Positions 2,380-35,006 of a DNA stretch of 64,000 nt are shown here, one piece after another. The stretch lies in the IMG/VR virus record IMGVR_UViG_3300045988_174353, positions 12,580 to 76,579 of that record; one strand, written 5' to 3'. The position numbers and the translations under genes were made by a program. The DNA comes from a virus. Below the pieces are notes generated by a model. The model was not told the DNA's origin, searched no databases, and saw nothing but the letters and a program-made list of their open reading frames with translations. The number at the start of each line of letters is the position of its first letter. Within the stretch, counting starts at the first letter, position 1.

Positions 2380-3086
2380 ATGTCTGAAGTTGTAGATATT
2401 ACAGGTCAAAAATTTAATCGACTTCTTGTAATAAAGAGAGTTGAAAACAATGAACATGGAGAATCGAGATGGCTATGTCGGTGTACCTGCGGGAAAGAAA
2501 AAATAGTAGTAGGGAGGTACCTAAAAGCAATCACACGAAATCATGCGGATGTCTTCATAAGGAATTGGGGGCAAAACGCATATATAAGTTTTCTAAAAAA
2601 TATAATACATACGACCTGTCTGGCGAATATGGCATTGGATATACAACAAAAGGATATCCATTTTATTTCGATTTAGAAGATTATGATAAAATCAAAGATG
2701 TGTGCTGGCATTTGACAAAACTTAAGTATATAGGCGGTCATTTTCAAGGTAAACTTGTTTTATTACATGCGTTTATACTTGGTAAAAAGTCTAAAATGGT
2801 GATAGACCATATAAACCATAATACAGCAGATAATCGGAAAGAGAATTTACGAATATGCTCACATCGCCAAAATCGCATGAATCACAAGATTTATAAAAAT
2901 AACACAACAGGTTATAGTGGAGTTCGTTTTTGTAAAGCGTCAAACAAATGGACCGCCCACATAAGTGTAAATTATAAAACGATTAACCTTGGCACATTTG
3001 AGTCAATGGAGGATGCGGTCGATGTTAGAAAGAAAGCCGAAAAAGAATATTTTGGAGAATTTGCCTATAAGGGAGATTTTGAATAG
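2380..3086 (+). pseudogene. HNH homing endonuclease with AP2 DNA-binding domain, interrupted by a -1 frameshift at an A4 run (2523-2526)
   Basis: Frame 1 gives MSEVVDITGQKFNRLLVIKRVENNEHGESRWLCRCTCGKEKIVVGRYLK. Frame 0 continues SNHTKSCGCLHKE.., then the HNH motif VIDHINHNTADNRKENLRICSHRQN and the AP2-like TTGYSGVRF..KWTAHISVNYKTINLGTFES. One extra A would fuse the two frames. Confidence 0.75.
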
Positions 3087-3973: not shown

Positions 3974-5680
3974 TTAGCCTATTTCTGCTCCGATTTCTCC
4001 GTTCTGCTCGTTTTCGGCAGTCGGAGTCCCGAACATTCCTGGTAAATTCTCCCCGCCGCCCGCAATTCCGAGCATTCCTTCGTCGCGCGGCTTCGTATGA
4101 TGTTCGATTAACCACTGCTTTTCGCGTTCATACTCGTCGGGGGCTAACGTGTCGTCATACAACTTCGCCATATACATCTCTTCAGACATACACTGCGCGT
4201 CCAACGCCGCTCCGAGTTTCTCTAACTTGTTTTCGAACGAAGAATCCGCAAATTCCGAGAATTTTACCGATATGTCATAGTCGTGAACGGTTATTTTGCC
4301 TGTGTCCATCAACTCTTTCGCGCATAACAACTGCGAACAAAGTGTTTTCAGTATCAATGCTTCGCTGTCGATTATGCAATTTCGGGTGAATATCGTTACT
4401 TTTTCTTTTTCTCTCTGCGCTTCCGCGTTATCTTTCTTTGCTATATCGATTCCCAGCGTCGCAGGAGACATTATTCCGTTAATAATCTGTAACAATATCT
4501 GCGTTGCCTGGTCGCTGTACTGCGCAAAATCAAGTTTCGGTTGCGTTACCTGTACCGCTACGCCCGTCGACGCTCCGTCCGCATTCGGCTGTCCTTGTAT
4601 TACCGTATATTTTCTGTCATAAGCGTGCGGCGGTATCGGCATTCCTGTCTTTGCATCTCTTTCCAGATAATCTGAATTGAAATACTCTATCGGCGTCGAT
4701 TTTCTCACACTCTCCGAGGCTTGCGACAAACACTGGTCCAAATCATCGAATAAATCGATTTTGCCTGTGAATATCGAACGCCCGAACCCGCCTATCTTCG
4801 ACGTGTCGGAAAACAGTACGCAAGGTACCGCTAAAAGCATATTGCAGTTCGAAACTTCTAAATCTTTCAAGTCGGCGAACTTATCAATGCTTTTTAAGTC
4901 TATCTCTTTGGCGGCGGTCACATCCGAATCTCCCGCACCCAACAAAAACAAATTATATTCGATTGCGAGATAGCGTTCTCTTTCCCCGCTCCCCGTAACG
5001 TCCCCGTCAACAGGGCGGCTTTTTATGCTTCGGGTTTCTGCTAACATATAATTCTTTCCGTCAGCCGAAGTATAGTAATCTTTGAATACCACACTCACTA
5101 CCCGATTAGCCTTATATATAAAGTCGACGCAGTCCGCTCTGTAATACGTCGCATACGGATAATCCGAGATGTCTTTATCCCAGTTTATCTTGTAACAGCC
5201 CCAACCTTCGACTAACGTCAACGGCAACTGCTCCTGACGATACAAATCTTTCAACCGCCCTTCTTCGATTATCTTTCTCAAATTGCGGTCGACTACGTTA
5301 TTCCCGTCCCCAGTCACTTTCGACGAAATCGTCGGGAATCGGCATATCCCCACAAGAGTATCTACTATGTTCCGCGGCTGTCCGCTATGCGTTCTTTTAA
5401 TGTCGCCTTCAGTAGACGATATTGCCCAAAAATAACTTTTTTTGTTCCGCAGATAAAACGGCTCGTAGTTCGCGTCTATCATATTGTTGTGGGTATAGTA
5501 ATTTAACAGTTCGTCACCGTCCCCGCAGTACCATATATTATATTCGCGTATACGCGTACGCATGAGCGCGTCATTATCATTTATAAAAGTGAGTCTGTCG
5601 TCGTCGGGTTTACCCGTCGCGCTCTTCGCTATTCCGCTCTTTCCGAACAGTTTTGTTTTTAACCATTCTCTGATTGTCAT
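3974..5680 (-). CDS. portal protein (SPP1 gp6-like)
   Basis: 568 aa from ATG 5680 (MTIREWLK..), which overlaps the upstream stop as ATGA. Portal-like core GIMSPATLGIDIAKKDNAEAQREKEKVTIFTRN. Size is typical of portals. Confidence 0.8.
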   Translation of the reverse strand: MTIREWLKTKLFGKSGIAKSATGKPDDDRLTFINDNDALMRTRIREYNIWYCGDGDELLNYYTHNNMIDANYEPFYLRNKKSYFWAISSTEGDIKRTHSGQPRNIVDTLVGICRFPTISSKVTGDGNNVVDRNLRKIIEEGRLKDLYRQEQLPLTLVEGWGCYKINWDKDISDYPYATYYRADCVDFIYKANRVVSVVFKDYYTSADGKNYMLAETRSIKSRPVDGDVTGSGERERYLAIEYNLFLLGAGDSDVTAAKEIDLKSIDKFADLKDLEVSNCNMLLAVPCVLFSDTSKIGGFGRSIFTGKIDLFDDLDQCLSQASESVRKSTPIEYFNSDYLERDAKTGMPIPPHAYDRKYTVIQGQPNADGASTGVAVQVTQPKLDFAQYSDQATQILLQIINGIMSPATLGIDIAKKDNAEAQREKEKVTIFTRNCIIDSEALILKTLCSQLLCAKELMDTGKITVHDYDISVKFSEFADSSFENKLEKLGAALDAQCMSEEMYMAKLYDDTLAPDEYEREKQWLIEHHTKPRDEGMLGIAGGGENLPGMFGTPTAENEQNGEIGAEIG

Positions 5681-5961
5681 ATTTCTTTGAACCTCTCTTC
5701 CTCGGTCATTTCGCCTTTCTTTATGAGATAATCTTCCCAACGCCGTACTTCGGCAATTGCTTCGTCGTATTCTTTTAATACAGGATAATATTTCGGGCAG
5801 TTAGGAATCTGTTGCCGAATCTTGTCGCAGTAATCCACTATCTTAAAATTTATTGGAAAATCAATATAACTATTATATTGCGCTACTGCAAATAATGCAG
5901 GTGTAATATCACAGTTTTCAACCAACCATTTCACTTCGGGGCAGGTCTTAGCCAACGACAT
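5677..5961 (-). CDS. hypothetical protein
   Basis: 94-aa ORF translationally coupled (ATGA) to the portal gene. Confidence 0.65.
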   Translation of the reverse strand: MSLAKTCPEVKWLVENCDITPALFAVAQYNSYIDFPINFKIVDYCDKIRQQIPNCPKYYPVLKEYDEAIAEVRRWEDYLIKKGEMTEEERFKEI

Positions 5962-6065
5962 TAAACCGACGTAATTTTTTACCCTGACTCGCCCTTTCCA
6001 GAATATATCGGATTTTATTAAAAACGGAGTTGTTTTCAGTCCACTTGCGAGACTTGGCTGAAACC

Positions 6066-6221
6066 TTAAAGTATAAAAAAATCGGTGTACCTCACAGCCG
6101 AATTGGCGGCGGGAGAATCGCCATTTTTGATAGGTGTGTTATCAAGAACGACTACCGCGCGTGACCCCCGTTTCCTGTCTTTCTGAAAGCCGAGCAACTC
6201 CCTACCCAAACTATCAATCAT
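6066..6221 (-). CDS. small hypothetical protein (51 aa, below ORF-track cutoff)
   Basis: ATG 6221 is preceded by AAGGAG. Protein MIDSLGRELLGFQKDRKRGSRAVVVLDNTPIKNGDSPAANSAVRYTDFFIL*. Confidence 0.35.
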   Translation of the reverse strand: MIDSLGRELLGFQKDRKRGSRAVVVLDNTPIKNGDSPAANSAVRYTDFFIL

Positions 6222-6291
6222 ATTCGTAAAAACTCCTTATAAAATCTAAAAAAATGCGCCCCAAAGCGGAGCGGGAATGGACCGAAGCGAA

Positions 6292-6873
6292 TCAGTCCTT
6301 TTTATCATTATTGATACAGTTATTATCATTATTGATAGAAGAAAATTTACCGTTACCGAGGTCATTAACGATAGTAATATTCGGTTGAGGAGCGGCATTT
6401 TCTTCGAGTTTCATGAAGTGTTTAATAACGCAAGCGAGAGCGGTATTGTTACCGCGTTGAGCGAGGTTATTAATAGCGCGTCTTGCCCAAACGTCAGCGA
6501 CGTCGGAGAGGGTATCGTAAGCATCTGTGAACTTCATATTATAGGCTTTCATGCAGAAGACGTCGAGTTGAGAAGCGGAGCAATGAAGGAGGCGCGTAAA
6601 GTTCTTTTTAGGGGTCCAGACGGAGACGAGGTTTTCGAAGGTATCGAGGTCGAAATCGAAGCCGTCTATTTTGCGATTTTTGCGATTAGGGCGAAGCAAA
6701 TCGAGGTAAGATTCAGGTTCGACGTCGGAGCGATAGCCTTTATCGGAGACGACTGCGAAGGACTGAGAAGAGGGGTCAGGGACGGACTTTTCCTTATCGA
6801 TAGCGTCGTCGGGAGATATACCGATTTTCATATCTTCTTCGAGCGATTTTTTATCGAAATTATTGTGTGCCAT
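6292..6873 (-). CDS. putative terminase small subunit (gp3-type DNA-packaging protein-like)
   Basis: ATG 6873 after an AGAGGTGA RBS. The central segment FTRLLHCSASQLDVFCMKAYNMKFTDAYDTLSDVADVWARRAINNLAQRGNNTALACVIKHFMKLEE fits the HTH plus ..G-N-x-T/G-A...-K-N/H-F pattern of gp3-type TerS. Called from memory of the family only. Confidence 0.4.
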   Translation of the reverse strand: MAHNNFDKKSLEEDMKIGISPDDAIDKEKSVPDPSSQSFAVVSDKGYRSDVEPESYLDLLRPNRKNRKIDGFDFDLDTFENLVSVWTPKKNFTRLLHCSASQLDVFCMKAYNMKFTDAYDTLSDVADVWARRAINNLAQRGNNTALACVIKHFMKLEENAAPQPNITIVNDLGNGKFSSINNDNNCINNDKKD

Positions 6874-6914
6874 GCGATTCACCTCTGAAATGTAGTTTGT
6901 TTTATAAATACCCG

Positions 6915-7703
6915 TTAAACGGATTCTTTCCGCCCTTGAAGCGATAAAACCCTATCTTTGAAAAGTTCTTCGAGTTTTTCTCTTTCTCGTCTTTTAACCG
7001 CCTTTCTGCCCTTTGACGCGGTATATTCATTCCAGAACGGAGTGAACCAGTTAAAATCGTAATCTTTAGCGGCGAGTTGGACGTAATAGTCGGCGAAGTC
7101 GGGAAGTTGAAGTTTTTTACGTTGTTTAGGGTTCGGGACGTGAATAGTTACGGGTTGACCGTTTTCGTCGAAGGAAACCACAGGAACGAGCCGAACTTCT
7201 TTAGGAATACCGAGAGCCGCTTTAACGGTAGCGGGTTTAGGTTGTAGGGATATTCTGCGATGTCGTTTTTTGTTCTGGTGTCTTGCGGCATTGAGGACCG
7301 TTGAAGAAATAGAGAAGAAGCGTTTGATAACGGCGAGGCAGAAGTCGCGTTGTTCTATGAAGGGGGCGTTGTCGAGTTCGTCCTGATTGGAGAATTTCAG
7401 GAAGATTGGGTCGTCGTCCGAAATTTGGCGTTTAGGGCGTTCTTCGTCGTCGGGGTCTGAGTCTTCGGGATAGAGGAAGGTAGAGAACTCGTCAAAGAGG
7501 AACGATTGTTCGCCGTAGCGGTGAAGGGATTGGAAGTAGAGAACGAAGCAATCCCTTGGTTTGCTGTAAGAAACGGACGGAAAGAGATTAGGGTTAAGTT
7601 TGAGTTTTAATCCCGAACTGACTGTTGAGCGAACGCCGCAGTCTTTAAGATAAGAGCGGACGGTTTCGGGGCAATTCGGGGAAACGATTTCGGAAACTGG
7701 CAT
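6915..7703 (-). CDS. hypothetical protein (262 aa)
   Basis: The track ORF extends to 7853 but runs across a consensus promoter. ATG 7703 (MPVSEIVSPN..) lies about 35 nt downstream of the -10 box and has a GAGG RBS. Confidence 0.65.
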   Translation of the reverse strand: MPVSEIVSPNCPETVRSYLKDCGVRSTVSSGLKLKLNPNLFPSVSYSKPRDCFVLYFQSLHRYGEQSFLFDEFSTFLYPEDSDPDDEERPKRQISDDDPIFLKFSNQDELDNAPFIEQRDFCLAVIKRFFSISSTVLNAARHQNKKRHRRISLQPKPATVKAALGIPKEVRLVPVVSFDENGQPVTIHVPNPKQRKKLQLPDFADYYVQLAAKDYDFNWFTPFWNEYTASKGRKAVKRREREKLEELFKDRVLSLQGRKESV

Positions 7704-7739
7704 AGTGAAACGAACCTCGTAAGATTTAATTCTGGGCAA

Positions 7740-7768
7740 AGTATACCACAGAAAAAAAGTGTTGTCAA
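7740..7768 (-). promoter_or_regulatory. sigma-70/sigma-A type promoter
   Basis: Minus strand reads AAAACGC-TTGACA (7768-7763), 17-nt spacer, TATACT (7745-7740). Confidence 0.7.
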
Positions 7769-7833
7769 GCGTTTTGCAAAAATTTTCAAAGAAAGAAACC
7801 TGTATAGCGGCGCGGGTGAGTAACGGGCAAAAC

Positions 7834-7877
7834 GTCAAAATGTCAAGTGTCAAGCGATGTCAAATCCGTAACTTGAC
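7834..7877. repeat. cluster of five TTGAC/GTCAA half-sites
   Basis: GTCAA at 7834, 7842, 7849 and 7859 (start-to-start spacing 8, 7 and 10 nt), plus an inverted TTGAC at 7873. Confidence 0.6.
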
Positions 7878-8012
7878 GGCACTTTCGTGGCAAAGTAAAA
7901 CAATCACTTAACATTTTTATCATTTTGGGGTATAAATAGAAATTTTCGTTTCATTTCAAGCCGTTTTAACCCACTTTGTTCTATATTTTTTCCTGCCAAA
8001 TCGTCAGTTTTT

Positions 8013-8273
8013 GAAAAATTGTAGTGTAAGTGATAAAGATTTCAGGTCAAAAATTTAAGATAATATCTACGATTTTGAAAGATTTTATACACGTTGTTGA
8101 CTAAAAATTTAATTTTTTGCTATTAATACTATATTTTTTTATTTTTATTTTTCATGCGTTTAATAGTAAAAATAATAATTTTTAAGAGAAAAGAAAGAAA
8201 TAAGAAAGAAAATGTCCTGTAATTATCTGCGATTTTGAGCAAAAAATCATTTTCACTTACACTACAATTTTTC
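8013..8273. repeat. perfect 21-bp inverted repeat pair flanking an AT-rich core
   Basis: GAAAAATTGTAGTGTAAGTGA at 8013-8033 and its exact reverse complement at 8253-8273, checked base by base. Confidence 0.9.
8061..8238. repeat. imperfect direct repeat pair inside the inverted repeat
   Basis: TAATATCTACGATTTTGA (8061-8078) versus TAATTATCTGCGATTTTGA (8220-8238). Confidence 0.7.
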
Positions 8274-8308
8274 CTGTCAGAATGTGATGAGATTGTGAAA
8301 AGAGGTGG

Positions 8309-8339
8309 TCGTCAGTTTTTTGATTTATACAACTGACGA
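8309..8339. repeat. hairpin built from the CGTCAG motif
   Basis: TCGTCAGTT (8309-8317) pairs with AACTGACGA (8331-8339). CGTCAG also occurs at 8002-8007 and 8358-8363. Confidence 0.7.
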
Positions 8340-8487
8340 AGAAAAAGGGGGGGTATACGTCAGTGGCACTTTACATTATTGTCATATCCTAAAATTTCGT
8401 AGTAAAGTATTGTATTGACATTATTGTTAAATGAAGAAAATCGGGGAATTTGGGGCGGGTGAGACCCGAAGAAAAAACTACAGAAAA

Positions 8488-8536
8488 CCCCGAATTTAGT
8501 GTAATCTCAAAAAAAGAAAAACGACTCGATTCGGGG
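8488..8536 (-). terminator. putative terminator downstream of 8594..9052
   Basis: CCCCGAAT (8488-8495) pairs with ATTCGGGG (8529-8536). T-runs follow on both strands, and a second small GC hairpin (CGGG..CCCG) lies at about 8445-8470. Confidence 0.5.
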
Positions 8537-8593
8537 TTTTCTTAAAGGAATAAAGGGGGAATGGATGGGCTTATTATTGTGTGAAGATTTTTC

Positions 8594-9056: not shown

Positions 9057-9455
9057 TTATACCTCATCGACGAACGGCAAAGGCTTTTCGATTGATTCGC
9101 CGTAAACTTTCTTTAAGTTCTGCAACTTGATTAGTCTGTTCTTCTTCTCGGTAATCTGCTGTTCTAACTTCTCGATTTGATACTTTAAGACGTTTTCGCG
9201 AGTGTTGCCGATTACCTGATTCCCGATAACGTAAAATCTGTCGTACCCGTTCTCTTCGTCGAAAGTCGTAATGTTGTCTATCGTCCCGTCTTCGAGTCGT
9301 ACGGTACACTTTACGTAAGTCCGTAAAACTTTCGGAACGTCTAAACATGGAACGTCGTCCAGCGCGTCGCCTACTGCGATTATATCGCCCGTAATGCCGT
9401 CTGCCGTTACGACTTTGTCCGCAACGTGAAATTCTATTTTATTTCGTTTCTTCAT
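9057..9455 (-). CDS. hypothetical protein (paralogue of 12206..12604)
   Basis: 132 aa. Shares F-x-V-x-DKV-x-TA-x-G..G-x-I, FY-x-IG..V-x-GN and a C-terminal coiled coil with the other 132-aa ORF. Confidence 0.7.
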   Translation of the reverse strand: MKKRNKIEFHVADKVVTADGITGDIIAVGDALDDVPCLDVPKVLRTYVKCTVRLEDGTIDNITTFDEENGYDRFYVIGNQVIGNTRENVLKYQIEKLEQQITEKKNRLIKLQNLKKVYGESIEKPLPFVDEV

Positions 9456-10020
9456 TTTTCTGCTCCTGTTTCGTATATTTGTCGTAGTAACATTCTCTTA
9501 AATATTTAGTCCTGGCAACGGCGAGTTCTCTTTCGATTTCCGCCGCCGTCTTGCCTGATGAACGGGCAATTCGAGCCATACTCATCCCGTTCAGCCACTG
9601 CGTTAATATTTCGTTGCTGGGCGTATGCGGGTTGGGTATATCCCCGAATCTCGCCCCGCCGACTCTCTTCCTGACGTACTCGGTTGTGAATGTGGTTATA
9701 TTGATTCTCTCACCCCAACGAAACGCATTTAACGCCGCTATAACGCCCGAAAGCGAATCCTCGGCAGATAACCCGAACTTATCCGAAAGATAGTCCACAA
9801 GCCGCAATCTGTCAACTAAGGGCATTTTATAAAACTGTTGTGCTTCCGCTCTGGCGCGAGCCGCTTCGACTGCGGTCGAAAAATAGCCGAGCGCAATCTT
9901 TTCGCCGCTGTAATGAACGTAGGCGCGATACTTGCCCGCGACGGATTCAAACGAAACGCCTGTATATCCCGACGTATTATTCTTCGAAATTTTTCTGCCG
10001 TTGTTAGTAATTTCTGGCAT
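9439..10020 (-). CDS. AP2-domain DNA-binding protein with C-terminal HTH
   Basis: AP2/ERF-type signature NTSGYTGVSFESVAGKYRAYVHYSGEKIALGYFSTAVEAARARAEA. HTH-like C-terminal segment LNGMSMARIARSSGKTAAEIERELAVARTKYL. Confidence 0.65.
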   Translation of the reverse strand: MPEITNNGRKISKNNTSGYTGVSFESVAGKYRAYVHYSGEKIALGYFSTAVEAARARAEAQQFYKMPLVDRLRLVDYLSDKFGLSAEDSLSGVIAALNAFRWGERINITTFTTEYVRKRVGGARFGDIPNPHTPSNEILTQWLNGMSMARIARSSGKTAAEIERELAVARTKYLRECYYDKYTKQEQKNEETK

Positions 10021-10034
10021 AGTCGATTTTCTCC

Positions 10035-10343
10035 TTATATGTAATAAACCCCGTATTCAGAGGATATTGCAATTTTTTCGCCCGCTTTGACTGCTTCGAT
10101 TTGCTTACGATATTTCGGAATAGAATACTTAAACGCCGCAAGCAACTTAAAACCTTTTCTCGTCGGTTGTCCGTCAAGAGCAGATTTCGCCCCGAAGATA
10201 TAACCTTTCTTTTGTAACTGTTTCGCAAACGCCGCTTTTGACAAAGCGTCCATATAAGCGTAGTTCTGCGAATATCTGACTGCTGGATTCGTCGTTAAAA
10301 GATAGAACATCATTCCTGCAAAATATGCTTTACTGTTTTTCAT
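10035..10343 (-). CDS. hypothetical protein
   Basis: 102-aa ORF packed in the operon, overlapping the upstream stop by 14 nt. Confidence 0.6.
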   Translation of the reverse strand: MKNSKAYFAGMMFYLLTTNPAVRYSQNYAYMDALSKAAFAKQLQKKGYIFGAKSALDGQPTRKGFKLLAAFKYSIPKYRKQIEAVKAGEKIAISSEYGVYYI

Positions 10344-11037
10344 TTTTATCGTCGACCTCCGCCGCAGAATTTTGTGCTTCCGATTTTTCGACGATAACGT
10401 ATTTAACCGTTTCGAGTAAGTTTTCGTAAGACATTTTGTACTTTTTGATAAACGAATCTATTCCGTTAAGAATTTCGGGCGAAGGACGAGCGATTCCGAG
10501 TTCGGACATCGCCTTAAAAATCGATTCGGAATTTCTCCAGTGAATGTGCGGCAGTGCGATAATGTCGTGAATATTGCTTTTTGCAACGTCGCCTATCGTC
10601 GCGTAACCAGCCCGACGCAGGTCGGATTTTGTTTTCGTCGAAAAGTTAAACGCGGAAATAGAAGTGTCGGCAAGGGTTAATTCCTGTTCGGTTTTAAGTT
10701 TATCTCCACACAGAACAACAGGCTGATTGTCAACGCTTCTGAAAAATTCTTCGAAGTATTCTTCCCTGTTGAGTTTGCTTAACGCGGTGTGTTGCGCGAT
10801 TTGAAGGGCTTGACGAGTAACGGTATTGTCGTAGCGTTTTGCGATTGCCTGATAGGACAGTCCGTCGCGGTAACGCCAGATAAGAGATTCAACGTCGCGG
10901 TCGGAAATCTGCGCGTACATAGCGACGCGTTTAAGATTAAGTTCAAACGCTGTCGTATTGATTCCCGCGGAATCTTTGCCTGCGCCGAAAATCGCAAGGA
11001 TTAAATTGTAAGGATAGTATTCTGTTTGTATTGTCAT
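10330..11037 (-). CDS. putative transcription factor: sigma-70 region-4-like HTH fused to RNAP alpha-CTD-like helix-hairpin-helix
   Basis: Sigma region-4 pattern: DRDVESLIWRYRDGLSYQAIAKRYDNTVTRQALQIAQHTALSKL. Alpha-CTD pattern L..R..N.L..AGI.TIGDL...G.KS..EI...L...GL: FNFSTKTKSDLRRAGYATIGDVAKSNIHDIIALPHIHWRNSESIFKAMSELGI. Confidence 0.55.
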   Translation of the reverse strand: MTIQTEYYPYNLILAIFGAGKDSAGINTTAFELNLKRVAMYAQISDRDVESLIWRYRDGLSYQAIAKRYDNTVTRQALQIAQHTALSKLNREEYFEEFFRSVDNQPVVLCGDKLKTEQELTLADTSISAFNFSTKTKSDLRRAGYATIGDVAKSNIHDIIALPHIHWRNSESIFKAMSELGIARPSPEILNGIDSFIKKYKMSYENLLETVKYVIVEKSEAQNSAAEVDDKNEKQ

Positions 11038-20301: not shown

Positions 20302-20760
20302 TTACAGATTTTCTTCCACCACAAGGCTTATCGCCGTTATATCGTTGCAGTCGACCGCGGACCGTACTCCAATAACTTTGTAATCATTATACGGACAAGG
20401 GACAATACCACGAGACTGCATAGAAGCAATATCTTCTTTATTACCCGATGCTTGCCAATCCATACCTTTCCAGAGCAACGTGTCGACACGTTTGCGAAGT
20501 TTACAATTGTCCCGAACCTGCTCGAACTCAAACGTTTCTTTATAGATATACAAGGCTGAATTATGCGCGACATAGCGTTCCACAAACTCCGAAACGGTTA
20601 ATTGCGTTCCGTTTTTTAGTTTTTGAATTTCGGTTGCCGCGCGTTTGGCAAACTCTTCGTGTTCCTGTAACTCTTTCTTAAATTCGGCAAGCATTTCTTC
20701 GTAAAGTTTTGCTCCTGCCTTAAACCCTTTTTCATAGGCTAATTCTGCTGTGTTTATCAT
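20302..20760 (-). CDS. hypothetical protein
   Basis: 152-aa ORF. Confidence 0.6.
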   Translation of the reverse strand: MINTAELAYEKGFKAGAKLYEEMLAEFKKELQEHEEFAKRAATEIQKLKNGTQLTVSEFVERYVAHNSALYIYKETFEFEQVRDNCKLRKRVDTLLWKGMDWQASGNKEDIASMQSRGIVPCPYNDYKVIGVRSAVDCNDITAISLVVEENL

Positions 20761-20789
20761 AATGAACCTCTTAATTTTCCTGTACTTAA

Positions 20790-21104
20790 TTATAAATTTA
20801 CTTCTAACCCTTTTGCTTTTACTTGTCGTTTTAAGTTTTCAAATTTATTTTGTGCATCAACTATTCTTTTCATTTCGATAGACAATGTGTCGTCTATGTA
20901 CTTTTGAACAATTTTCTTAAAATCTGTTTCGTTAGTCGTCCAAGTCTCGCCCTCTTCAGCCTTTCGAAGTTGCGAGACGTACCGAACCGTACGAAGTGAG
21001 GACTGCCTATCAAGATAATATAATTTATCCGTTTCTTTGATAACGGGAATTGTCTCGACATATAATTTCCCATATATGACTTTAATTGCATAAATTTTTT
21101 TCAT
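20790..21104 (-). CDS. hypothetical protein
   Basis: 104-aa ORF. Confidence 0.6.
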   Translation of the reverse strand: MKKIYAIKVIYGKLYVETIPVIKETDKLYYLDRQSSLRTVRYVSQLRKAEEGETWTTNETDFKKIVQKYIDDTLSIEMKRIVDAQNKFENLKRQVKAKGLEVNL

Positions 21105-27629: not shown

Positions 27630-29186
27630 TTAATGCAATTTGAACGACCGCCAACGCTTTAATTGACCGATAATCGGCTGAAAACCATATTCGGTAGCAG
27701 TCAATATATGGTCGTCGACATCGGCTCTTGCTTCGCCTTTCTTGCCTCTACGCGCGTTTTTAATTTCGCGGATAAGGTTTTTGCACTGGTCGCAAACAAG
27801 GAACGACGAATAAGCCATCATTAAACGCCAAAAGTCAATACGGGACTGAATGCTGATTTTCGTTGACGGCATAAACCGTAAATTGAAAAATCCCCATTCG
27901 CGGGCTTTCATTTCGAGTACTGCTCTGGCACCGACATCGGCAGAATCGACATAGACGTTAATCTGTCCGTTCATTAGCAAAGTCCCGCCGCCGCTGTATT
28001 TTTTCATCCATTCGGAGATATATTGCATAAGTCGGTCGGCTTGTGCGGGCAATCCGAGATTTTCGCGGTCGTCCGTATTGCAAGAGTTGTCTGCCGCATT
28101 GTTGCTGTGATAATATTCGTCGATGACAACCATTTTTTCAAGGTCGGACGTTACGGCGCAAAGCGACATAGTCGTAGCCGCGCGGATTTTTCTGTTTGGG
28201 TCTTCGCCTTTATTGACTTTTACTTTTTTACCTTCGCCGTCGGATAAGCCTATATCTATACCGATTGCAAAATCGTAGAAATTCATAACGGGCTTGCCGT
28301 AATTATCCTTGCCGACAAACGACGATAAGGGCAAAACCAAAGAATCGTTAAACTCGTCGTAAACGCTCGAACCTGTATTGCCGAACATTCCCAAAAATTC
28401 AACCTGATAGATTTTCGGCGATTTCCGCTTCATTTCCTGTGCGGATAAATCGTAATCTGCCGCCCTGAACTCATTGATTTTATAGGTTGATTTGTGAAGA
28501 TATAGTCCCCTGCCGTACGGTCCGATAAATTGCGGGTCGTAATAATCGACGTAATGCGTTTCGGGTCGGTCTAATAATTCGTAATCGTCGTCTAATCTGC
28601 CTTTGAAAAATTCTTCGTTAAGCCAAGATTCTCCGTCCCAAGCATTGAAACACATTGTTATCTGAAAGAATAAATCACCAGGCAGTTTACCACGGATTGA
28701 ACCGTCAAGTTTACGAAAGTCTTCGAATGTCGGAATCTCGAACGCTTCGTCGATGTAAGCGTCGGTAAAATAGCCGTGTGCGAACGTGATACCGTTTAAG
28801 GAAGTCGGGTTGTTAAGCCCACGAAAGATTATCTGTTGCCCCGTCGGTATATATTCGATTGTCAACGGATTCTTTGATATCTTAAAACTGTTTTCCAGAC
28901 CGAGGTCGATAATTCGTCCCGTAATGTTTTCAAACGTCGATTGACGGTTATCGCTATCGTTTTGACGAGCGATTAGAATATTTCGTCGCGAATCTGACAG
29001 AATTTTCATAATCGGCTCGCAACCGATTATATTATATGATTTTTTCGTAGAACGTGCGCCGCAGAACAGTCTGTAACGGACTCGACAATTTGTAAACCAA
29101 GCGTCGGTATAACCTTCGCCGATAAGCCGAGACAGCAGTAAATGTCTGTAACCGCGGTCGTCTACGCTGAATATTTCATCCCTCAT
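27630..29186 (-). CDS. terL: terminase large subunit (PBSX/Terminase_3-like)
   Basis: 518 aa. Walker A-like CGARSTKKS, Walker B AYIDEAFE, and a C-terminal RNaseH-like nuclease with acidic residues (IGIDIGLSDG, VYVDSADVG). Confidence 0.85.
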   Translation of the reverse strand: MRDEIFSVDDRGYRHLLLSRLIGEGYTDAWFTNCRVRYRLFCGARSTKKSYNIIGCEPIMKILSDSRRNILIARQNDSDNRQSTFENITGRIIDLGLENSFKISKNPLTIEYIPTGQQIIFRGLNNPTSLNGITFAHGYFTDAYIDEAFEIPTFEDFRKLDGSIRGKLPGDLFFQITMCFNAWDGESWLNEEFFKGRLDDDYELLDRPETHYVDYYDPQFIGPYGRGLYLHKSTYKINEFRAADYDLSAQEMKRKSPKIYQVEFLGMFGNTGSSVYDEFNDSLVLPLSSFVGKDNYGKPVMNFYDFAIGIDIGLSDGEGKKVKVNKGEDPNRKIRAATTMSLCAVTSDLEKMVVIDEYYHSNNAADNSCNTDDRENLGLPAQADRLMQYISEWMKKYSGGGTLLMNGQINVYVDSADVGARAVLEMKAREWGFFNLRFMPSTKISIQSRIDFWRLMMAYSSFLVCDQCKNLIREIKNARRGKKGEARADVDDHILTATEYGFQPIIGQLKRWRSFKLH

Positions 29187-29643
29187 TATTTTCGACCTCG
29201 ACTTCTTCGATTAAATTGCGTTCTTTCAACAATGCAATCTCTTCGGGGAAGTATTTGTCGAGTAAATCTTTATTGTAGTAAATCGAAGTGTCGCTCATAT
29301 CTAACGACGAAAATCCGACCCACCTATCGCCTTTGAGTTCGATTAGAATTTGCCAATTCGAAATCATTTCGGTAAATTTCGGTGTGAGTTTCAAATTACC
29401 GCCTTTATCGTATCTCAAATCAAATCTTTCTCTGAACACTTTTCTGTTTGGTTTGTAAATCTTATCACGCCATTCGGGGTTGCCATAGAACTGTTTTATT
29501 TTATATTGCGGGAGTTCGTGTTCTAAACCGAGTTCGTAAACTTTTACGACGGTATAATCTGCGGTCGGTATTATATCATAACCGATTTCGCCGAACGTAT
29601 TGTTGTCTGCTTCGTCTTTTACTTTATAAATTTTATCTGCCAT
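29176..29643 (-). CDS. hypothetical protein immediately upstream of terL
   Basis: 155-aa ORF overlapping the terL start by 11 nt. No TerS motif recognised. Confidence 0.6.
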   Translation of the reverse strand: MADKIYKVKDEADNNTFGEIGYDIIPTADYTVVKVYELGLEHELPQYKIKQFYGNPEWRDKIYKPNRKVFRERFDLRYDKGGNLKLTPKFTEMISNWQILIELKGDRWVGFSSLDMSDTSIYYNKDLLDKYFPEEIALLKERNLIEEVEVENNEG

Positions 29644-32077: not shown

Positions 32078-32460
32078 ATCAATTCTCTCATATTAACCGA
32101 CTTATTGCCCGCCTTTTCAAGCCCTTTATACATTCGGTACGGCATATAATAAAGTCGGTCGGGATTTCTATCCCAATAAATGAAGAATCCGACGTTTGCC
32201 ATATTTGCTCTTTCCGTCGCAATCTTCATCGCTGTTTTTTGGTTCGGCTCAATCCGTTCGAACGAAAACGACGCTTTATTTTGCTCTAAATGTTTTGCGT
32301 CGACAAACCAAGTTTCCTTATCTTTGCTTGCTATAATGTCGAACGGTTGTCCGCCTATTTTTTTAGGTAAAATATATACCCAAAATCCTAACGATTGAAA
32401 ATAATCCGCGATAATCTGTTCGGTTTCGTTTCCAACCTTTAATTGCTTTGATTTTATCAT
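32050..32460 (-). CDS. PD-(D/E)XK nuclease, Hjc-type Holliday junction resolvase-like
   Basis: 136 aa with GNETEQ..., FDIIAS and VDAKH, giving the E...D...(D/E)xK arrangement. Sits in the replication module. Confidence 0.55.
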   Translation of the reverse strand: MIKSKQLKVGNETEQIIADYFQSLGFWVYILPKKIGGQPFDIIASKDKETWFVDAKHLEQNKASFSFERIEPNQKTAMKIATERANMANVGFFIYWDRNPDRLYYMPYRMYKGLEKAGNKSVNMRELICKPLSEVK

Positions 32461-35006
32461 ATCTTATCCCCGCCGATATATACGCCGTTAAGTCGAATGC
32501 CGCAATACATCCGCGCTCCTGTCGACGCCATCTCGGTTTTTATGTTTGCCAAACGCTGTAATCTTTCTCGAAATACAGTTTCTTTGAGTTGTAATTCGTT
32601 ATTATCTTTCGCCCAAGTCTTAAACGCCGCAAACATTTCTTTTGCTTCTGTTTTGCTATGCTGAGTAAGTTTACATTCGTCTTTAACAAATTGAGCAACA
32701 ACATCCATTTTTTGTCTGTATTTCGCTTTGTCTTCTGTGAATATCTTACTTTCGGCAAAATTGCAGTTCTCGCCTTTTGCATTTCTTGTGTTCCAATACT
32801 TTACAAATCCCTGAATACACCAGCCGAGAATCTGCGGGTATTCTCTTTGCAATTTTTCGGGCAAGAACTTATCTTTTTTATCGCCCGTAAATGAATTGAT
32901 AAACGGCAAAGTTTTCGGTCTTCTCCAAATGCCTTCGTCCGTACCCGTTATTATAGGACGGTTATTCGTCGACATCCAAATCTTAAACTGCGGATAAAAT
33001 TCAAAAGGCTGTCCGAATTTGAACTGCGCTTGTATCTTATCTCCGCCCGTCAAAAGTTTAATCTGTGATTCTGCGAGTTTCCCGCCGTTATCCGTTTCGC
33101 CTGTTTCGACAAATCGAACTCCGCGGAGTCTTGCCAATGCAAATTCTACCGCTGACGAAGTATTATTTTTTTGTGCCATTAAAATCGCACTCGGAATTGC
33201 AGACGAATAATCGCCCATAATCTTCGCTACTGTTTCGGTCAAAGTTGATTTACCGTTCGAGCCTATGCCGTAAAGCAGAAACATTACCTGCTCTTTCGTC
33301 GAACCTGACAATGAATAACCCAAATAGGTTTGTACCGCATTTACACATTCTTCCGCGTCGTATATGTTATTATCCGACGGCATAAAGACGCTACGAAGAA
33401 ATTTTAACCATTCTGTCGGTTCTTCAAACGAAACTTTAATATTCGTATTTTTAGACATATAATAGTCTTTGGCAGTTTCTTGCGGAAGTATTTCACCCGT
33501 TCTCAAATCAACAACGCCAGATTCGGTGTTAAGCAGATACGGGTCCTGGTCGAATAGAGTATTTTCAACCGCCATTTTACCCGTATGCTTTAATTCGGCG
33601 AGCATAGCGTCTTTCCCCGCCTTATTCGACACCTTTTTGGTGTTTTTAATAAGTTCGGCAAGAAACGCTACAAGTTCCTGCGATTTCGCGTCATTGCCCT
33701 CTTTTTGGGCTTCTAATGCCTGTGCATGAATTTCGTCTTCTTCGGCTTTTAATATTGCGATAAATTTATCCGCATATTTACGGATAATGTCTTTCGTATC
33801 TTTTACCCAAGTCTTACCCGTCCAAAACATAAAGCATTCGTCGGTCGTATTATATCTGAAGATTTCTCCAAAATAATCGTAAAACCGCTCTGCATTGCCT
33901 GTATCGGTCAAGGGGTATCGCTTGAATATCTTTTTTATGCGGAATATCGGCTCGCCTTCGTCGTCAATATTCATAGTTAAACCGTCAGGATTTAATTCGG
34001 TCGACGACAATTCGGTATTCCCTGATTCAGAACGAATAGTAAATTTTTTATCCGCAACAGTCATTCCGCGAGTATCGCCGTTTGTGAATAGTCTTTCACC
34101 CGAATATCCGCCATCGCACGTTTGAATTGCTTTTAACAATGTCTTCTCGCCATAAGTGTATTCGCCGCGATATTCGTCCCATTTGTCACGCATTAAAGCC
34201 GAACTACGGAATATTCTATCCATTTGCGCTTTATCGCCGTTGCACCACCACGCAAGCATATTACAGAAAGACATATCCGCCGAACTCGCATCTCCACCGT
34301 CCATAGATATATCGCCATCGTGATAATACGCATAGAATTTCGCGTCCTGTTTACTCGCCAATGCGGTGTTAAGAATTTCATCATCGGACAGCACCAATGC
34401 GGAACGGTTCGGCTCTCTTTTAACTACGTTTTGAGCGTATTCGGATTTAACGTACTTCTCCCATAACGGTTTGACTTCTTCGGAACGTTCGTTAATCGTC
34501 GTATTACGAATTGTATTGCCCGTAAACGCAAAAAAACGACCCGAATCATACATTTCCACACAGCCCTTACGACGACTACCTTCGGGAAGTTGTCCTGCGC
34601 AAATAATGTGTATACCTTTCCCGCTTTGCGAATATTCGGTGTAAGAATCCAACGCGTCGATAAATTGAGTCGAAAAGGTTTTGAACTCTTCGTCGCTCAT
34701 CGGGACATTGCCGTCTTTATCTGCATGGTTGTCAAGGTCAATACCGAATATTCCAAACCCAAGAACAAATCCAATACCGTCGTGATGATACTTTACACAG
34801 CCGTTTAACGCGTTGTTAAAAGTCGTCCATGTAATTTCGTCGTTGACTTTCGCCTTTTTGCCAGTCAAAGCATTATAAGGGCGTTTTGTCGTTTTCCCGT
34901 CTTCCGTCCCTTCGACGTTAAAGCACACCCATCTCTTCAGTGCCTTGAGTTCGCTCGGAACGCTTTTATATTTTTCTTGTAATGCATGTAAGTCCATATA
35001 GTACAC
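32457..35006 (-). CDS. bifunctional primase-polymerase / D5-P4-type SF3 helicase
   Basis: N-terminal Prim-Pol motif GIGFVLGFGIFGIDLDNH. C-terminal P-loop LLYGIGSNGKSTL with ARLRGVRFVETGE. 849 aa. The start is GTG 35006 or ATG 34997. Confidence 0.85.
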   Translation of the reverse strand: MYYMDLHALQEKYKSVPSELKALKRWVCFNVEGTEDGKTTKRPYNALTGKKAKVNDEITWTTFNNALNGCVKYHHDGIGFVLGFGIFGIDLDNHADKDGNVPMSDEEFKTFSTQFIDALDSYTEYSQSGKGIHIICAGQLPEGSRRKGCVEMYDSGRFFAFTGNTIRNTTINERSEEVKPLWEKYVKSEYAQNVVKREPNRSALVLSDDEILNTALASKQDAKFYAYYHDGDISMDGGDASSADMSFCNMLAWWCNGDKAQMDRIFRSSALMRDKWDEYRGEYTYGEKTLLKAIQTCDGGYSGERLFTNGDTRGMTVADKKFTIRSESGNTELSSTELNPDGLTMNIDDEGEPIFRIKKIFKRYPLTDTGNAERFYDYFGEIFRYNTTDECFMFWTGKTWVKDTKDIIRKYADKFIAILKAEEDEIHAQALEAQKEGNDAKSQELVAFLAELIKNTKKVSNKAGKDAMLAELKHTGKMAVENTLFDQDPYLLNTESGVVDLRTGEILPQETAKDYYMSKNTNIKVSFEEPTEWLKFLRSVFMPSDNNIYDAEECVNAVQTYLGYSLSGSTKEQVMFLLYGIGSNGKSTLTETVAKIMGDYSSAIPSAILMAQKNNTSSAVEFALARLRGVRFVETGETDNGGKLAESQIKLLTGGDKIQAQFKFGQPFEFYPQFKIWMSTNNRPIITGTDEGIWRRPKTLPFINSFTGDKKDKFLPEKLQREYPQILGWCIQGFVKYWNTRNAKGENCNFAESKIFTEDKAKYRQKMDVVAQFVKDECKLTQHSKTEAKEMFAAFKTWAKDNNELQLKETVFRERLQRLANIKTEMASTGARMYCGIRLNGVYIGGDKI

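What the first reader, a model, noticed from the sequence alone, without database searches (positions are those of the whole stretch)
7860..8593. A 730-bp AT-rich non-coding region with nested inverted and direct repeats: candidate replication origin or packaging site
This is the largest non-coding stretch in an otherwise tightly packed window. It has a symmetrical architecture.
- A perfect 21-bp inverted repeat, GAAAAATTGTAGTGTAAGTGA, at 8013-8033 and 8253-8273.
- Inside that, an 18/19-nt direct repeat, TAAT(T)ATCT(A/G)CGATTTTGA, at 8061 and 8220.
- Both enclose a roughly 120-bp core that is almost pure A/T, with A- and T-tracts and AGAAA repeats (8100-8215).
- To the right, the motif CGTCAG occurs four times (8002, 8310, 8333 inverted, 8358). 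Two of the copies form a 9-bp-stem hairpin at 8309-8339.

A DNA-unwinding-element-like core flanked by repeated protein-binding sites is what an origin looks like. Alternatively, the region sits just upstream of the operon containing the TerS-like gene and the portal, so it could hold the pac or cos site.
Basis: partly seen in the sequence, partly recalled or inferred. Interest (0 to 1): 0.6.

Follow-up and report, generated by a model that had tools for sequence, protein, structure and literature searches.

The report
Paired palindromic origin-like phage cassette
The gene-free stretch is one of two copies of a conserved, AT-rich palindromic DNA element in a gut phage; it is most likely a protein-bound replication-origin-type site, a known kind of element not yet described for this phage group.

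Summary

First, a paralogous ~290-bp palindrome ("A") lies 12 kb away, outside the window. A and the element in the finding ("B") are the two largest palindromes in the 76.5-kb circular phage genome. B holds its most AT-rich 100 bp, and A ranks among the top four. Paired elements occur at the same two places (upstream of the portal operon and of the scaffold/capsid operon) in relatives down to 47% portal identity.

Second, the outer arms are specific to each genome but shared by both copies. They switch type together with the N-terminal domain of the adjacent orphan gene p263, even where neighbouring genes are mostly 90-99% identical.

The phage encodes a P4/SaPI-type primase-helicase. Phage SPP1 has the same layout: two origins ~13 kb apart, one interrupting the head genes.

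My odds:
- origin-type cassette: about 0.4
- transcription-control site for p263: about 0.3
- packaging site: about 0.1, although p196 does prove to be a TerS homologue

Earlier notes from this scan describe similar two-copy origin cassettes in other phages.

The parts
7704..8593 (.). Whole gene-free region B (890 bp, 32% GC), between the end of the long minus-strand block and the start of the portal operon
7740..7768 (-). Sigma-70-type promoter of the portal operon (TTGACA-17-TATACT with TG, 11/12). It is conserved in relatives and separate from the palindrome.
7834..7877 (-). Tandem array of CTTGACA / GTCAA repeats (3-4 copies), conserved in relatives
8001..8012 (+). Box1 12-mer TCGTCAGTTTTT at the operon-proximal edge of the palindrome. 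Of its 6 matches (<=1 mismatch) in the 76.5-kb genome, 5 lie in regions A and B.
8013..8033 (+). Operon-proximal outer arm, a type-specific 21-mer (core GTAGTG-TAAGTGA)
8061..8092 (+). Inner arm block TAATATCTACGATTTTGAAAGATTTTATACAC. It holds one copy of the direct repeat and two GATTTT hexamers 10 bp apart. Its 26-bp core CTACGATTTTGAAAGATTTTATACAC (8067-8092) is identical in type I and IIa genomes.
8100..8215 (.). AT-rich core (13.8% GC), candidate unwinding element. It contains the conserved asymmetric centre TATTAATAC...TTTTTCATGCGTTTAATAG (8121-8166) and the AG-rich run (8170-8215) that replaces the lost right inner arm.
8220..8238 (+). Second copy of the direct repeat TAATTATCTGCGATTTTGA
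8253..8273 (-). Operon-distal outer arm, a perfect inverted copy of the 21-mer
8309..8363 (+). Three CGTCAG boxes in alternating orientation (8310 +, 8333 -, 8358 +) around a G7 run (8346-8352). Highly conserved. The 9-bp stem is not kept in the G001 relative, so these read better as protein sites than as a hairpin.
8368..8425 (+). Two conserved blocks, TTTACATTATTG and TTGACATTATTG. They look like a vestigial copy of the rightward consensus promoter of region A.
8482..8542 (-). Terminator-type hairpin (AAAACCCCGAAT...ATTCGGGGTTTT) ending the long minus-strand block, with compensatory changes in relatives
6915..7703 (-). p263, an orphan protein and first gene of the portal operon. Its N-terminal ~190 aa switch type together with the palindrome arms.
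6292..6882 (-). p196, homologue of the gene at the TerS position (abutting TerL) in relative G005
32457..35006 (-). P4-family / SaPI PriRep-like primase-helicase (NrS-1 HBD, D5_N, DUF5906, Pox_D5; TIGR01613), the probable replication initiator

Best explanation
Region B (palindrome at 8001-8280 plus flanking boxes) and its paralogue A (genome 8596-8884, 12 kb to the left and outside the window) form a pair of origin-type cis elements of a virulent-looking 76.5-kb gut Firmicutes phage.

Shown:
- Each element has a ~100-120-bp core that ranks among the most AT-rich DNA of the genome.
- The core is flanked by short sequence-specific sites in opposite orientation, plus a 12-mer box and a G-run.
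- The sites are kept by selection as islands of identity, not by wholesale homogenisation.
- The outer arms are specific to each genome, are shared by A and B, and switch type together with the N-terminal domain of the adjacent gene p263.

Inferred:
- p263 binds the outer arms through its N-terminal domain.
- The inner blocks and the centre, which are conserved across arm types, are used by the conserved P4/SaPI-type primase-helicase. It would load on either side of the AT-rich core, which melts.
- Negative supercoiling from the strong promoters that fire away from the elements would help melting.
- A is a full palindrome at a divergent gene junction and would fire in both directions.
- B has lost its right inner arm, and no gene is read rightwards from it. 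It would act in one direction, or as the auxiliary or fork-arrest site, like P4 crr or SPP1 oriR.
For: Size and composition:
- A and B are the two largest palindromes genome-wide in G000 and G001. In G003 the B equivalent ranks first and the A equivalent is also among the top palindromes.
- B holds the most AT-rich 100-bp window in G000, with A among the top four. The two elements hold the top two windows in G001 and G003, and the top and third windows in G002.

Conservation:
- The architecture is kept at the same two places in relatives down to 47% portal identity. The arm sequence is replaced, but it stays shared by both copies of each genome.
- The small relative G005 also has two near-identical copies.
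- Identity between A and B comes in islands: the 21-mer arms, CTACGATTTT..AAGATTTTATACAC, and a 99-bp centre at 89%. The spacers between them have diverged.
- TGTAAGTGA occurs only at the four arms in 76.5 kb. Of the 6 box1 matches (<=1 mismatch), 5 lie in A or B.

Initiator:
- The phage encodes a P4-family primase-helicase (TIGR01613 at 231 bits; best solved-structure match is the 797-aa DNA primase 7OLA).
- For SaPI Rep proteins, the known origins are iterons pointing in opposite directions on both sides of an AT-rich region (PMC9371898).
- Its C-terminal DNA-binding end is among its fastest-evolving parts.

Precedent:
- SPP1 has two origins ~13 kb apart with repeats plus an AT-rich unwinding element. 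One of them sits in a moron-bearing segment that interrupts the head genes before the scaffold gene (PMC6316719).
- A sits in exactly that place.
- A RecU-like nuclease and a DUF3799 exonuclease are encoded next to the primase-helicase.

Independence from promoters:
- The conserved promoters lie 10 to about 530 bp from the palindromes, across poorly conserved spacers.

Link to p263:
- Three p263 types match three arm types.
Against: - No replication data exist.
- The element is not next to the primase-helicase gene, unlike SaPI origins.
- The arms co-vary with p263, not demonstrably with the primase-helicase. p263 has no recognisable fold or family.
- p263 and B are adjacent, so linkage could explain part of the co-variation. 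I could not obtain copy A of a type IIa genome.
- Both elements lie upstream of operons, as regulatory sites would.
- G005 has the element but no p263.
- The GATTTT hexamer is enriched only in G000 and G001.
- GC skew follows transcription and gives no independent signal.
Confidence: 0.4

Rival explanations
1. Transcription-control region. p263 is a site-specific regulator that binds the outer arms at B (its own operon) and at A (the scaffold/capsid operon and the divergent plus-strand block). It loops the flexible AT-rich DNA to switch these operons, much as operator sets are shared between two promoter regions in an immunity module. The AT-rich centre and the conserved TATAAAAT blocks would be promoter or UP-like elements.
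For: - Both copies lie upstream of operons. In G003 and G005 they sit within ~10-45 bp of a consensus promoter.
- The inner arm is kept only on sides that face genes, and was lost on B's gene-less side in both G000 and G001.
- The site type co-varies with the N-terminal domain of the adjacent gene, while its C-terminus stays constant. This is typical of regulator/operator cassettes.
- A-tracts sit on the operon-sense strand, and GTGTATAAAATC is conserved with TTGATT/TTGAAT 18 bp upstream in G001 and L063.
Against: - The well-conserved strong promoters are separate from the palindromes, at variable distances (about 233 and 270 bp in G000) across unconserved spacers. One relative has a 90-bp deletion there.
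- No candidate promoter inside the palindrome reaches 10/12.
- The centre is flipped between the two copies of G003, which argues against an orientation-dependent promoter element.
- p263 has no detectable DNA-binding fold.
- G005 has the element without p263.
Confidence: 0.3
2. Packaging recognition site (pac or cos). B is where the terminase small subunit, perhaps together with p263, binds and where cutting starts. The G-run between inverted CGTCAG boxes would be the cut site.
For: - B lies ~0.85 kb upstream of p196, which is homologous to the gene abutting TerL in G005 (hhalign probability 95.6%, E 1e-8).
- A split between a variable N-terminal domain and a constant C-terminus, co-varying with nearby DNA sites, is also what terminase small subunits show (lambda Nu1/cosB, from established knowledge).
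- An HNH gene lies three genes upstream.
- Several metagenome contigs end in B.
Against: - There are two copies per genome in all relatives, and G005's second copy is upstream of its replication genes.
- Contig ends fall at different positions that coincide with A/B repeat boundaries (window-equivalent 8101 and 8032). One 63-kb contig is about the size expected for the genome minus the ~11-12-kb A-B interval.
- TerL is Terminase_3. From memory, untested here, this family is associated with headful packaging, which needs no cos site.
- The HNH gene shows a faint AP2 hint, like the homing-type HNH-AP2 gene nearby.
- p155, which abuts TerL, is another TerS candidate by position.
Confidence: 0.1
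3. No sequence-specific function. On this view the element is a relic of an old duplication of an AT-rich spacer, kept similar by gene conversion, or a MITE-like selfish palindrome.
For: It is a palindrome with terminal inverted repeats, is present in two copies, and breaks assemblies.
Against: - It stays syntenic in genomes with 47-91% portal identity.
- There are only two copies and no target-site duplications.
- Identity comes in islands separated by diverged spacers.
- Both arms change in concert in near-isogenic genomes.
Confidence: 0.05

Closest known systems
SPP1 oriL / oriR (Bacillus subtilis phage SPP1)
   Same: - Two similar elements lie ~12-13 kb apart on the circular map, each with repeats plus an AT-rich unwinding region.
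- One copy sits in a segment carrying moron genes that interrupts the conserved head-gene order just before the scaffold gene.
- A RecU-type resolvase and an exonuclease are encoded, as needed for the proposed fork-arrest switch (PMC6316719, PMC3485210).
   Different: - The initiator is different: SPP1 uses gp38/gp39 with a DnaB-type gp40, while this phage has a P4-family primase-helicase.
- SPP1 oriL lies inside the initiator gene.
- SPP1 uses direct repeats, not a 290-bp palindrome.
- No sequence similarity was found.
SaPI / PICI Rep or PriRep origins
   Same: - The phage encodes a homologous primase-helicase (best solved-structure match 7OLA; D5_N / Pox_D5).
- The element has an AT-rich centre with short hexamer-like repeats on both sides pointing in opposite directions, at a 200-300-bp scale (PMC9371898).
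   Different: - It is not immediately downstream of the helicase gene.
- It is present in two copies.
- Only about two repeats per side sit in the outer arms.
- The arm type tracks another protein (p263).
Satellite phage P4 ori and crr with the alpha protein
   Same: - The phage has a P4-family primase-helicase domain (TIGR01613).
- Two separated cis sites carry the same genome-specific motifs.
   Different: - P4 uses arrays of an octamer. Here the sites are arranged as a large palindrome with additional 12-mer boxes.
- Whether both sites are required is unknown.
Lambda-type specificity cassettes (O protein N-domain with ori iterons; Nu1 N-domain with cosB; repressor with OL/OR)
   Same: DNA sites and the N-terminal domain of the adjacent gene are exchanged together, while the C-terminal domain stays constant.
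   Different: p263 has no detectable similarity to any of these proteins, so the analogy does not say which process is involved.

Membership tests
SaPI/PICI-type Rep-ori module | Element encodes a self-loading SF3 primase-helicase with a C-terminal DNA-binding domain | tested here: met
   Pfam NrS-1 HBD, D5_N, DUF5906 and Pox_D5; best PDB match 7OLA (797-aa DNA primase), E 5e-38; TIGR01613 at 231 bits
SaPI/PICI-type Rep-ori module | AT-rich centre with short repeats on both sides pointing in opposite directions | tested here: met
   Core is 12-14% GC. Arms GTAGTG-TAAGTGA are inverted at 8013-8033 and 8253-8273, and inner GATTTT pairs are present.
SaPI/PICI-type Rep-ori module | Origin lies immediately downstream of the rep gene | tested here: not met
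   The primase-helicase gene (32457-35006) is followed directly by another gene. B is 24 kb away.
SaPI/PICI-type Rep-ori module | Repeats are bound by, and co-vary with, the helicase C-terminal domain | tested here: inconclusive
   The C-terminal ~90 aa are among the fastest-evolving parts. However, the arm types track p263, and no primase-helicase sequence was available for type IIa genomes.
SPP1-type double origin | Two similar repeat plus AT-rich elements about 13 kb apart | tested here: met
   A is at genome 8596-8884 and B at 20580-20859. The centre is 89% identical over 99 bp.
SPP1-type double origin | One copy sits with moron genes between the portal-side head gene and the scaffold gene | tested here: met
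   Order is portal, p267, [plus-strand block, A], scaffold, capsid. Distant relatives have portal, p267, scaffold and capsid contiguous.
SPP1-type double origin | A gp38-type origin-binding protein with the other origin inside its gene | tested here: not met
   B is non-coding. No gp38/39/40-type match turned up among the ~60 proteins scanned against Pfam/PHROGs; these families were not searched for specifically.
pac / cos packaging site | Next to or inside the small-terminase gene | tested here: inconclusive
   B is 0.85 kb upstream of the TerS homologue p196, with p263 in between. A has no terminase gene nearby.
pac / cos packaging site | A single site per genome that defines the DNA ends | tested here: not met
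   There are two copies in G000-G003 and G005. Contig ends vary in position and sit at repeat boundaries.
pac / cos packaging site | Read termini pile up at the site | not testable with these tools
Promoter/operator switch region | Binding sites overlap conserved promoter hexamers | tested here: not met
   Conserved promoters are at 7768->7740, genome 8328->8300 and genome 9413-9441, outside the palindromes. Sites inside score at most 9/12.
Promoter/operator switch region | Sites co-vary with a neighbouring DNA-binding regulator | tested here: inconclusive
   Co-variation with the p263 N-domain is clear. DNA binding by p263 is not shown, and no fold match was found.
MITE-like mobile palindrome | Many dispersed copies with target-site duplications | tested here: not met
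   Two copies only, syntenic across relatives.
Known RNA families (Rfam) | Match at gathering score | tested here: not met
   No match in the window. Only a chance-level rliE hit (E 0.36) in the A and B loci.

The most novel reading that the evidence does not exclude
The palindrome and the N-terminal domain of p263 form an exchangeable specificity cassette of a new kind. An orphan-fold DNA-binding protein would mark two sites per genome and decide where the conserved primase-helicase starts replication, or where forks stop to switch to concatemer synthesis. Related phages in one host would then carry incompatible 'replicon types', as immunity types do for repressors.
Probability: 0.2. Interest if true: 0.65.

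Novelty: new variant of a known kind. Interest (0 to 1): 0.45.

Why it matters
Replication origins are unmapped for almost all uncultured gut phages. Here one finds a pair of conserved cis elements, a candidate binding partner with no known relatives, and natural cassette swaps among neighbouring genes that are mostly 90-99% identical. Together these give a directly testable system: three arm types against three p263 types. If the origin reading holds, it extends the SPP1 two-origin layout to phages that use a P4/SaPI-type primase-helicase. It would also supply origin and specificity parts for work with gut Firmicutes phages. If the regulatory reading holds, p263 is a new family of phage transcription factor.

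Tried and rejected
Searches that found nothing useful:
- Rfam and tRNA scans: nothing.
- blastn of the region against cultured phages: no match. The portal is at most 31% identical to any cultured phage.
- Exact 21-mer in IMG/VR: none.

Small conserved ORF:
- The + strand ORF at 8305-8418 stays open in relatives.
- It is only 52% identical in protein in G001.
- It has no properly spaced ribosome-binding site, so I rejected it.

Hairpin at 8309-8339:
- The stem is not maintained in G001, so I read the boxes as protein sites.

Other tests:
- A genome-wide scan for other iteron clusters found no outlier elsewhere.
- GATTTT is enriched only in G000 and G001, so it is not a general iteron.
- p196 and p263 gave no Pfam, PHROG or NCBIfam hit and no PDB or BFVD fold match.
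- No integrase, resolvase or ParB was found, so attP and partition-site readings were dropped.

Copy A of a type IIa genome:
- The records are not held.
- The IMG/VR hit was an unrelated phage.
- The one metagenome scan gave only one relevant contig, without A.
- An exact-protein look-up gave only short contigs.

GC skew:
- It follows gene orientation and was not used as evidence.
Full report
**Setting**

The window is bases 12580-76579 of a 76,579-bp virus record whose ends overlap by 119 bp. The assembly is therefore circular or circularly permuted. The main genes are:
- portal at 3974-5740 (-)
- Terminase_3 large terminase at 27630-29186 (-)
- P4-family primase-helicase at 32457-35006 (-)
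- recombination genes and tail-fibre genes

. No integrase, resolvase or ParB was found. Consensus TTGACA/TATAAT promoters and GGAGG-type ribosome sites point to a Firmicutes host. The nearest cultured phages (Anaerostipes, Clostridium, Solobacterium) share at most 31% portal identity.

**The observation**

- The perfect 21-bp inverted repeat is at 8013-8033 and 8253-8273.
- The 18/19-nt direct repeat is at 8061 and 8220.
- The core at 8100-8215 is 13.8% GC.
- Four CGTCAG copies lie at 8002, 8310, 8333 (-) and 8358, with a 9-bp inverted pair at 8309-8339.

None of this is chance.
- The 21-mer never occurs in shuffles, even with 3 mismatches.
- Four CGTCAG in 362 bp has Poisson P ~1e-5.
- The palindrome folds as single-stranded DNA with z = -4.1.

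The gene-free stretch actually runs from 7704 to 8593. The left gene starts at the ATG at 7703, behind a conserved sigma-70 promoter at 7768->7740.

**A second copy**

The own genome holds a paralogue, A, at genome 8596-8884. That is 12 kb to the left and outside the window, inside a 1.2-kb gene-free gap.
- A is a fuller ~290-bp palindrome running TCGTCAG...CTGACGA (z = -5.2).
- A and B share the 21-mer arm, the block CTACGATTTT..AAGATTTTATACAC, and a 99-bp centre at 89% identity in the same orientation. The spacers between these islands have diverged.
- B's right inner arm is replaced by an AG-rich run. The closest relative shows the same loss.
- TGTAAGTGA occurs only at the four arms in the whole genome. 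Of the 6 matches to TCGTCAGTTTTT (<=1 mismatch), 5 lie in A or B.

**Gene context**

- A sits at a divergent junction. The scaffold and capsid genes run leftwards from it, and a plus-strand block of small genes ending in an HNH-AP2 gene runs rightwards.
- B sits between a terminator-type hairpin that ends the long minus-strand block (8482-8542, with compensatory changes in relatives) and the operon p263, p196, p94, portal, p267.
- Distant relatives have the canonical contiguous order TerL, portal, p267, scaffold, capsid.
- In this clade that order is broken twice, and A and B lie at the two breaks.
- Conserved strong promoters are separate from the palindromes: 7768->7740, genome 8328->8300, and genome 9413-9441 (a 12/12 match). 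They lie about 230-530 bp away across poorly conserved spacers.

**Relatives**

I fetched five complete relatives, G001-G005. All encode the same primase-helicase at 41-87% identity.
- In G000 and G001, A and B are the two largest palindromes genome-wide. In G003 the B equivalent ranks first and the A equivalent is also among the top palindromes.
- In G000, B holds the most AT-rich 100 bp and A ranks among the top four. The two elements hold the top two windows in G001 and G003. In G002 they hold the first and third, and G004 shows the same two places.
- The arm sequence differs between genomes but is shared by both copies within each genome:
  - G000: TGTAGTGTAAGTGA
  - G001: T(C/G)TAAGTGATGAACTTT
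  - G002: TTTAAGTGCA
  - G003: CCAGGTAAAGTCAAAA

.
- The centre (CATG..AAAAATAAAAATAAAAA..TAT..ATTAATA) is recognisably conserved between G000 and G003, although their portals are only 47% identical. It is flipped between the two G003 copies.
- The 36-kb relative G005 has two nearly identical ~105-bp copies (TTATGATATTTT-N65-AAAATATCATAA with an A16 centre). One lies between TerL and portal. The other lies upstream of the operon that contains its primase-helicase.
- Many other distant relatives have only a 65-90-bp TerL-portal gap with a promoter and no palindrome.

**A partner gene**

Comparing near-identical strains from metagenomes showed that p263, the first gene left of B, falls into discrete types that match the arm types.
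- Type I: p263 at least 80% identical to G000. Arms are ...TGTAGTGTAAGTGAAAATG.
- Type IIa: p263 at 55-57%. Both arms changed to GAGTCTAACTGATAA.
- Type IIb: p263 about 50%. Arms are TGTGAGTGTAAGTGATGAACTTT.

Type IIa genomes are otherwise close to G000: portal 98.8%, p267 98.9%, HNH 97.9%, p196 91.8%. The type IIa protein is a mosaic. Its N-terminal ~190 residues are divergent, and its last ~65 residues are nearly identical to type I.

The exchanged unit therefore runs from the distal arm through the promoter into the N-terminal domain of p263. Inside that unit, the 26-bp core of the inner block (CTACGATTTTGAAAGATTTTATACAC) stays identical and the centre nearly so.

In G000 and G001 the far copy A carries the same arm type as B. 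Homologues of p263 follow the B-type element in G002, G003 and G004 as well. p263 has no family, solved-structure or fold match, although the model is fair at pLDDT 75.

Because p263 and B are adjacent, linkage is a confounder. I could not obtain copy A of a type IIa genome to break it.

**What it most likely is**

With high confidence (about 0.9), this is a conserved, duplicated, protein-bound cis element. With moderate confidence (about 0.6), p263 recognises its outer arms.

For the process involved, I favour an origin-type role at about 0.4, for these reasons.
- The phage's only recognisable initiator is a P4/SaPI-type self-loading primase-helicase. The known origins of that family have short repeats pointing in opposite directions on both sides of an AT-rich region (PMC9371898).
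- Phage SPP1 provides a precedent for the whole layout. It has two origins ~13 kb apart, each with repeats plus an AT-rich unwinding element. One of them sits with moron genes in a segment that interrupts the head genes before the scaffold gene, which is where A lies. That second origin is proposed to stall forks and trigger the switch to concatemer synthesis with a RecU-type resolvase (PMC6316719 and the PMC3485210 abstract). This phage encodes a RecU-like nuclease and an exonuclease beside its primase-helicase.
- The variable, unconserved distance to the flanking promoters fits a function that does not depend on promoter geometry.

Against this reading:
- The element is far from the primase-helicase gene.
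- The arms track p263 rather than the helicase.
- No replication evidence exists.

**Rivals**

Transcription control by p263, about 0.3:
- For: the position upstream of operons. The inner arm was lost exactly on B's gene-less side. The regulator/operator-like cassette behaviour.
- Against: the separate, variably spaced promoters and the flipped centre in G003.

Packaging site, about 0.1:
- For: p196 proved to be a homologue of the gene that abuts TerL in G005 (hhalign probability 95.6%, E 1e-8).
- Against: there are two copies per genome. Contig ends fall at repeat boundaries rather than at one base. TerL is a Terminase_3 member, a family that from memory is associated with headful packaging.

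A functionless relic or mobile palindrome, about 0.05, is excluded by synteny and by the island-like conservation.

**Limits**

Earlier notes of this scan (AI notes, unchecked) describe similar two-copy iteron cassettes in other phages with P4-family primase-helicases. I treat them as leads only.

Noticed in passing
window 6292-6882 (-) and 27630-29643 (-): The TerS homologue p196 sits next to the portal gene, about 21 kb from the large terminase gene. The large terminase keeps a different small ORF (p155, 29176-29643) abutting it. Distant relatives have TerS, TerL and portal contiguous.
   Followed up: partly
window 6915-7703 (-): p263 is an orphan protein (AlphaFold pLDDT 75, no PDB or BFVD match) that occurs in discrete types. 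Type IIa is a mosaic with a divergent N-terminal ~190 aa and a constant C-terminal ~65 aa.
   Followed up: yes
window 7834-7877: A tandem CTTGACA (-35-like) array of 3-4 copies lies about 70-110 bp upstream of the -35 box of the portal-operon promoter and is conserved in relatives. The sigma-region-4/alpha-CTD-like gene p235 (10330-11037) lies 2 kb upstream and could be its binder. This was not tested.
   Followed up: partly
own genome 9068-9146 (L002 1974-2052), outside the window: To the right of palindrome A, a G-rich box (GGGGTTTGGCGGGGGTGGGA) is followed ~40 nt later by a complementary C-rich box (CCACCCCTACCCGC). One apparent compensatory change separates G000 and G001 (GCGGG/CCCGC versus GAGGG/CCCTC). 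This may be a structured element.
   Followed up: no
window 6001-8000: GC skew is positive (+0.10, +0.25) although p196 and p263 are on the minus strand, the opposite of all other minus-strand genes in the window.
   Followed up: no
window 2469-3086 (+) and 9439-10020 (-): Two HNH genes are present. The first is a clear HNH_3 plus AP2 homing-type gene at the convergent end of the plus-strand block. The second has only a faint AP2 hint.
   Followed up: partly
L068 (ENA scaffold of 214,258 bp): A 214-kb scaffold carrying a type IIb relative is about three times the ~71-kb genome length. It is probably a concatemer-like assembly rather than an integrated prophage.
   Followed up: no
L058 16006-16620 (G005): In the small relative G005, a ParB_N-domain protein sits directly upstream of the TerS homologue.
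   Followed up: no
L061, L066, L039 and other metagenome contigs: Assemblies of relatives often break inside A and B. One 63-kb contig is about the size expected for the genome minus the ~11-12-kb A-B interval, and several ~7-10-kb contigs start in or near B. The A/B repeat is therefore widespread and long enough to split assembly graphs.
   Followed up: partly
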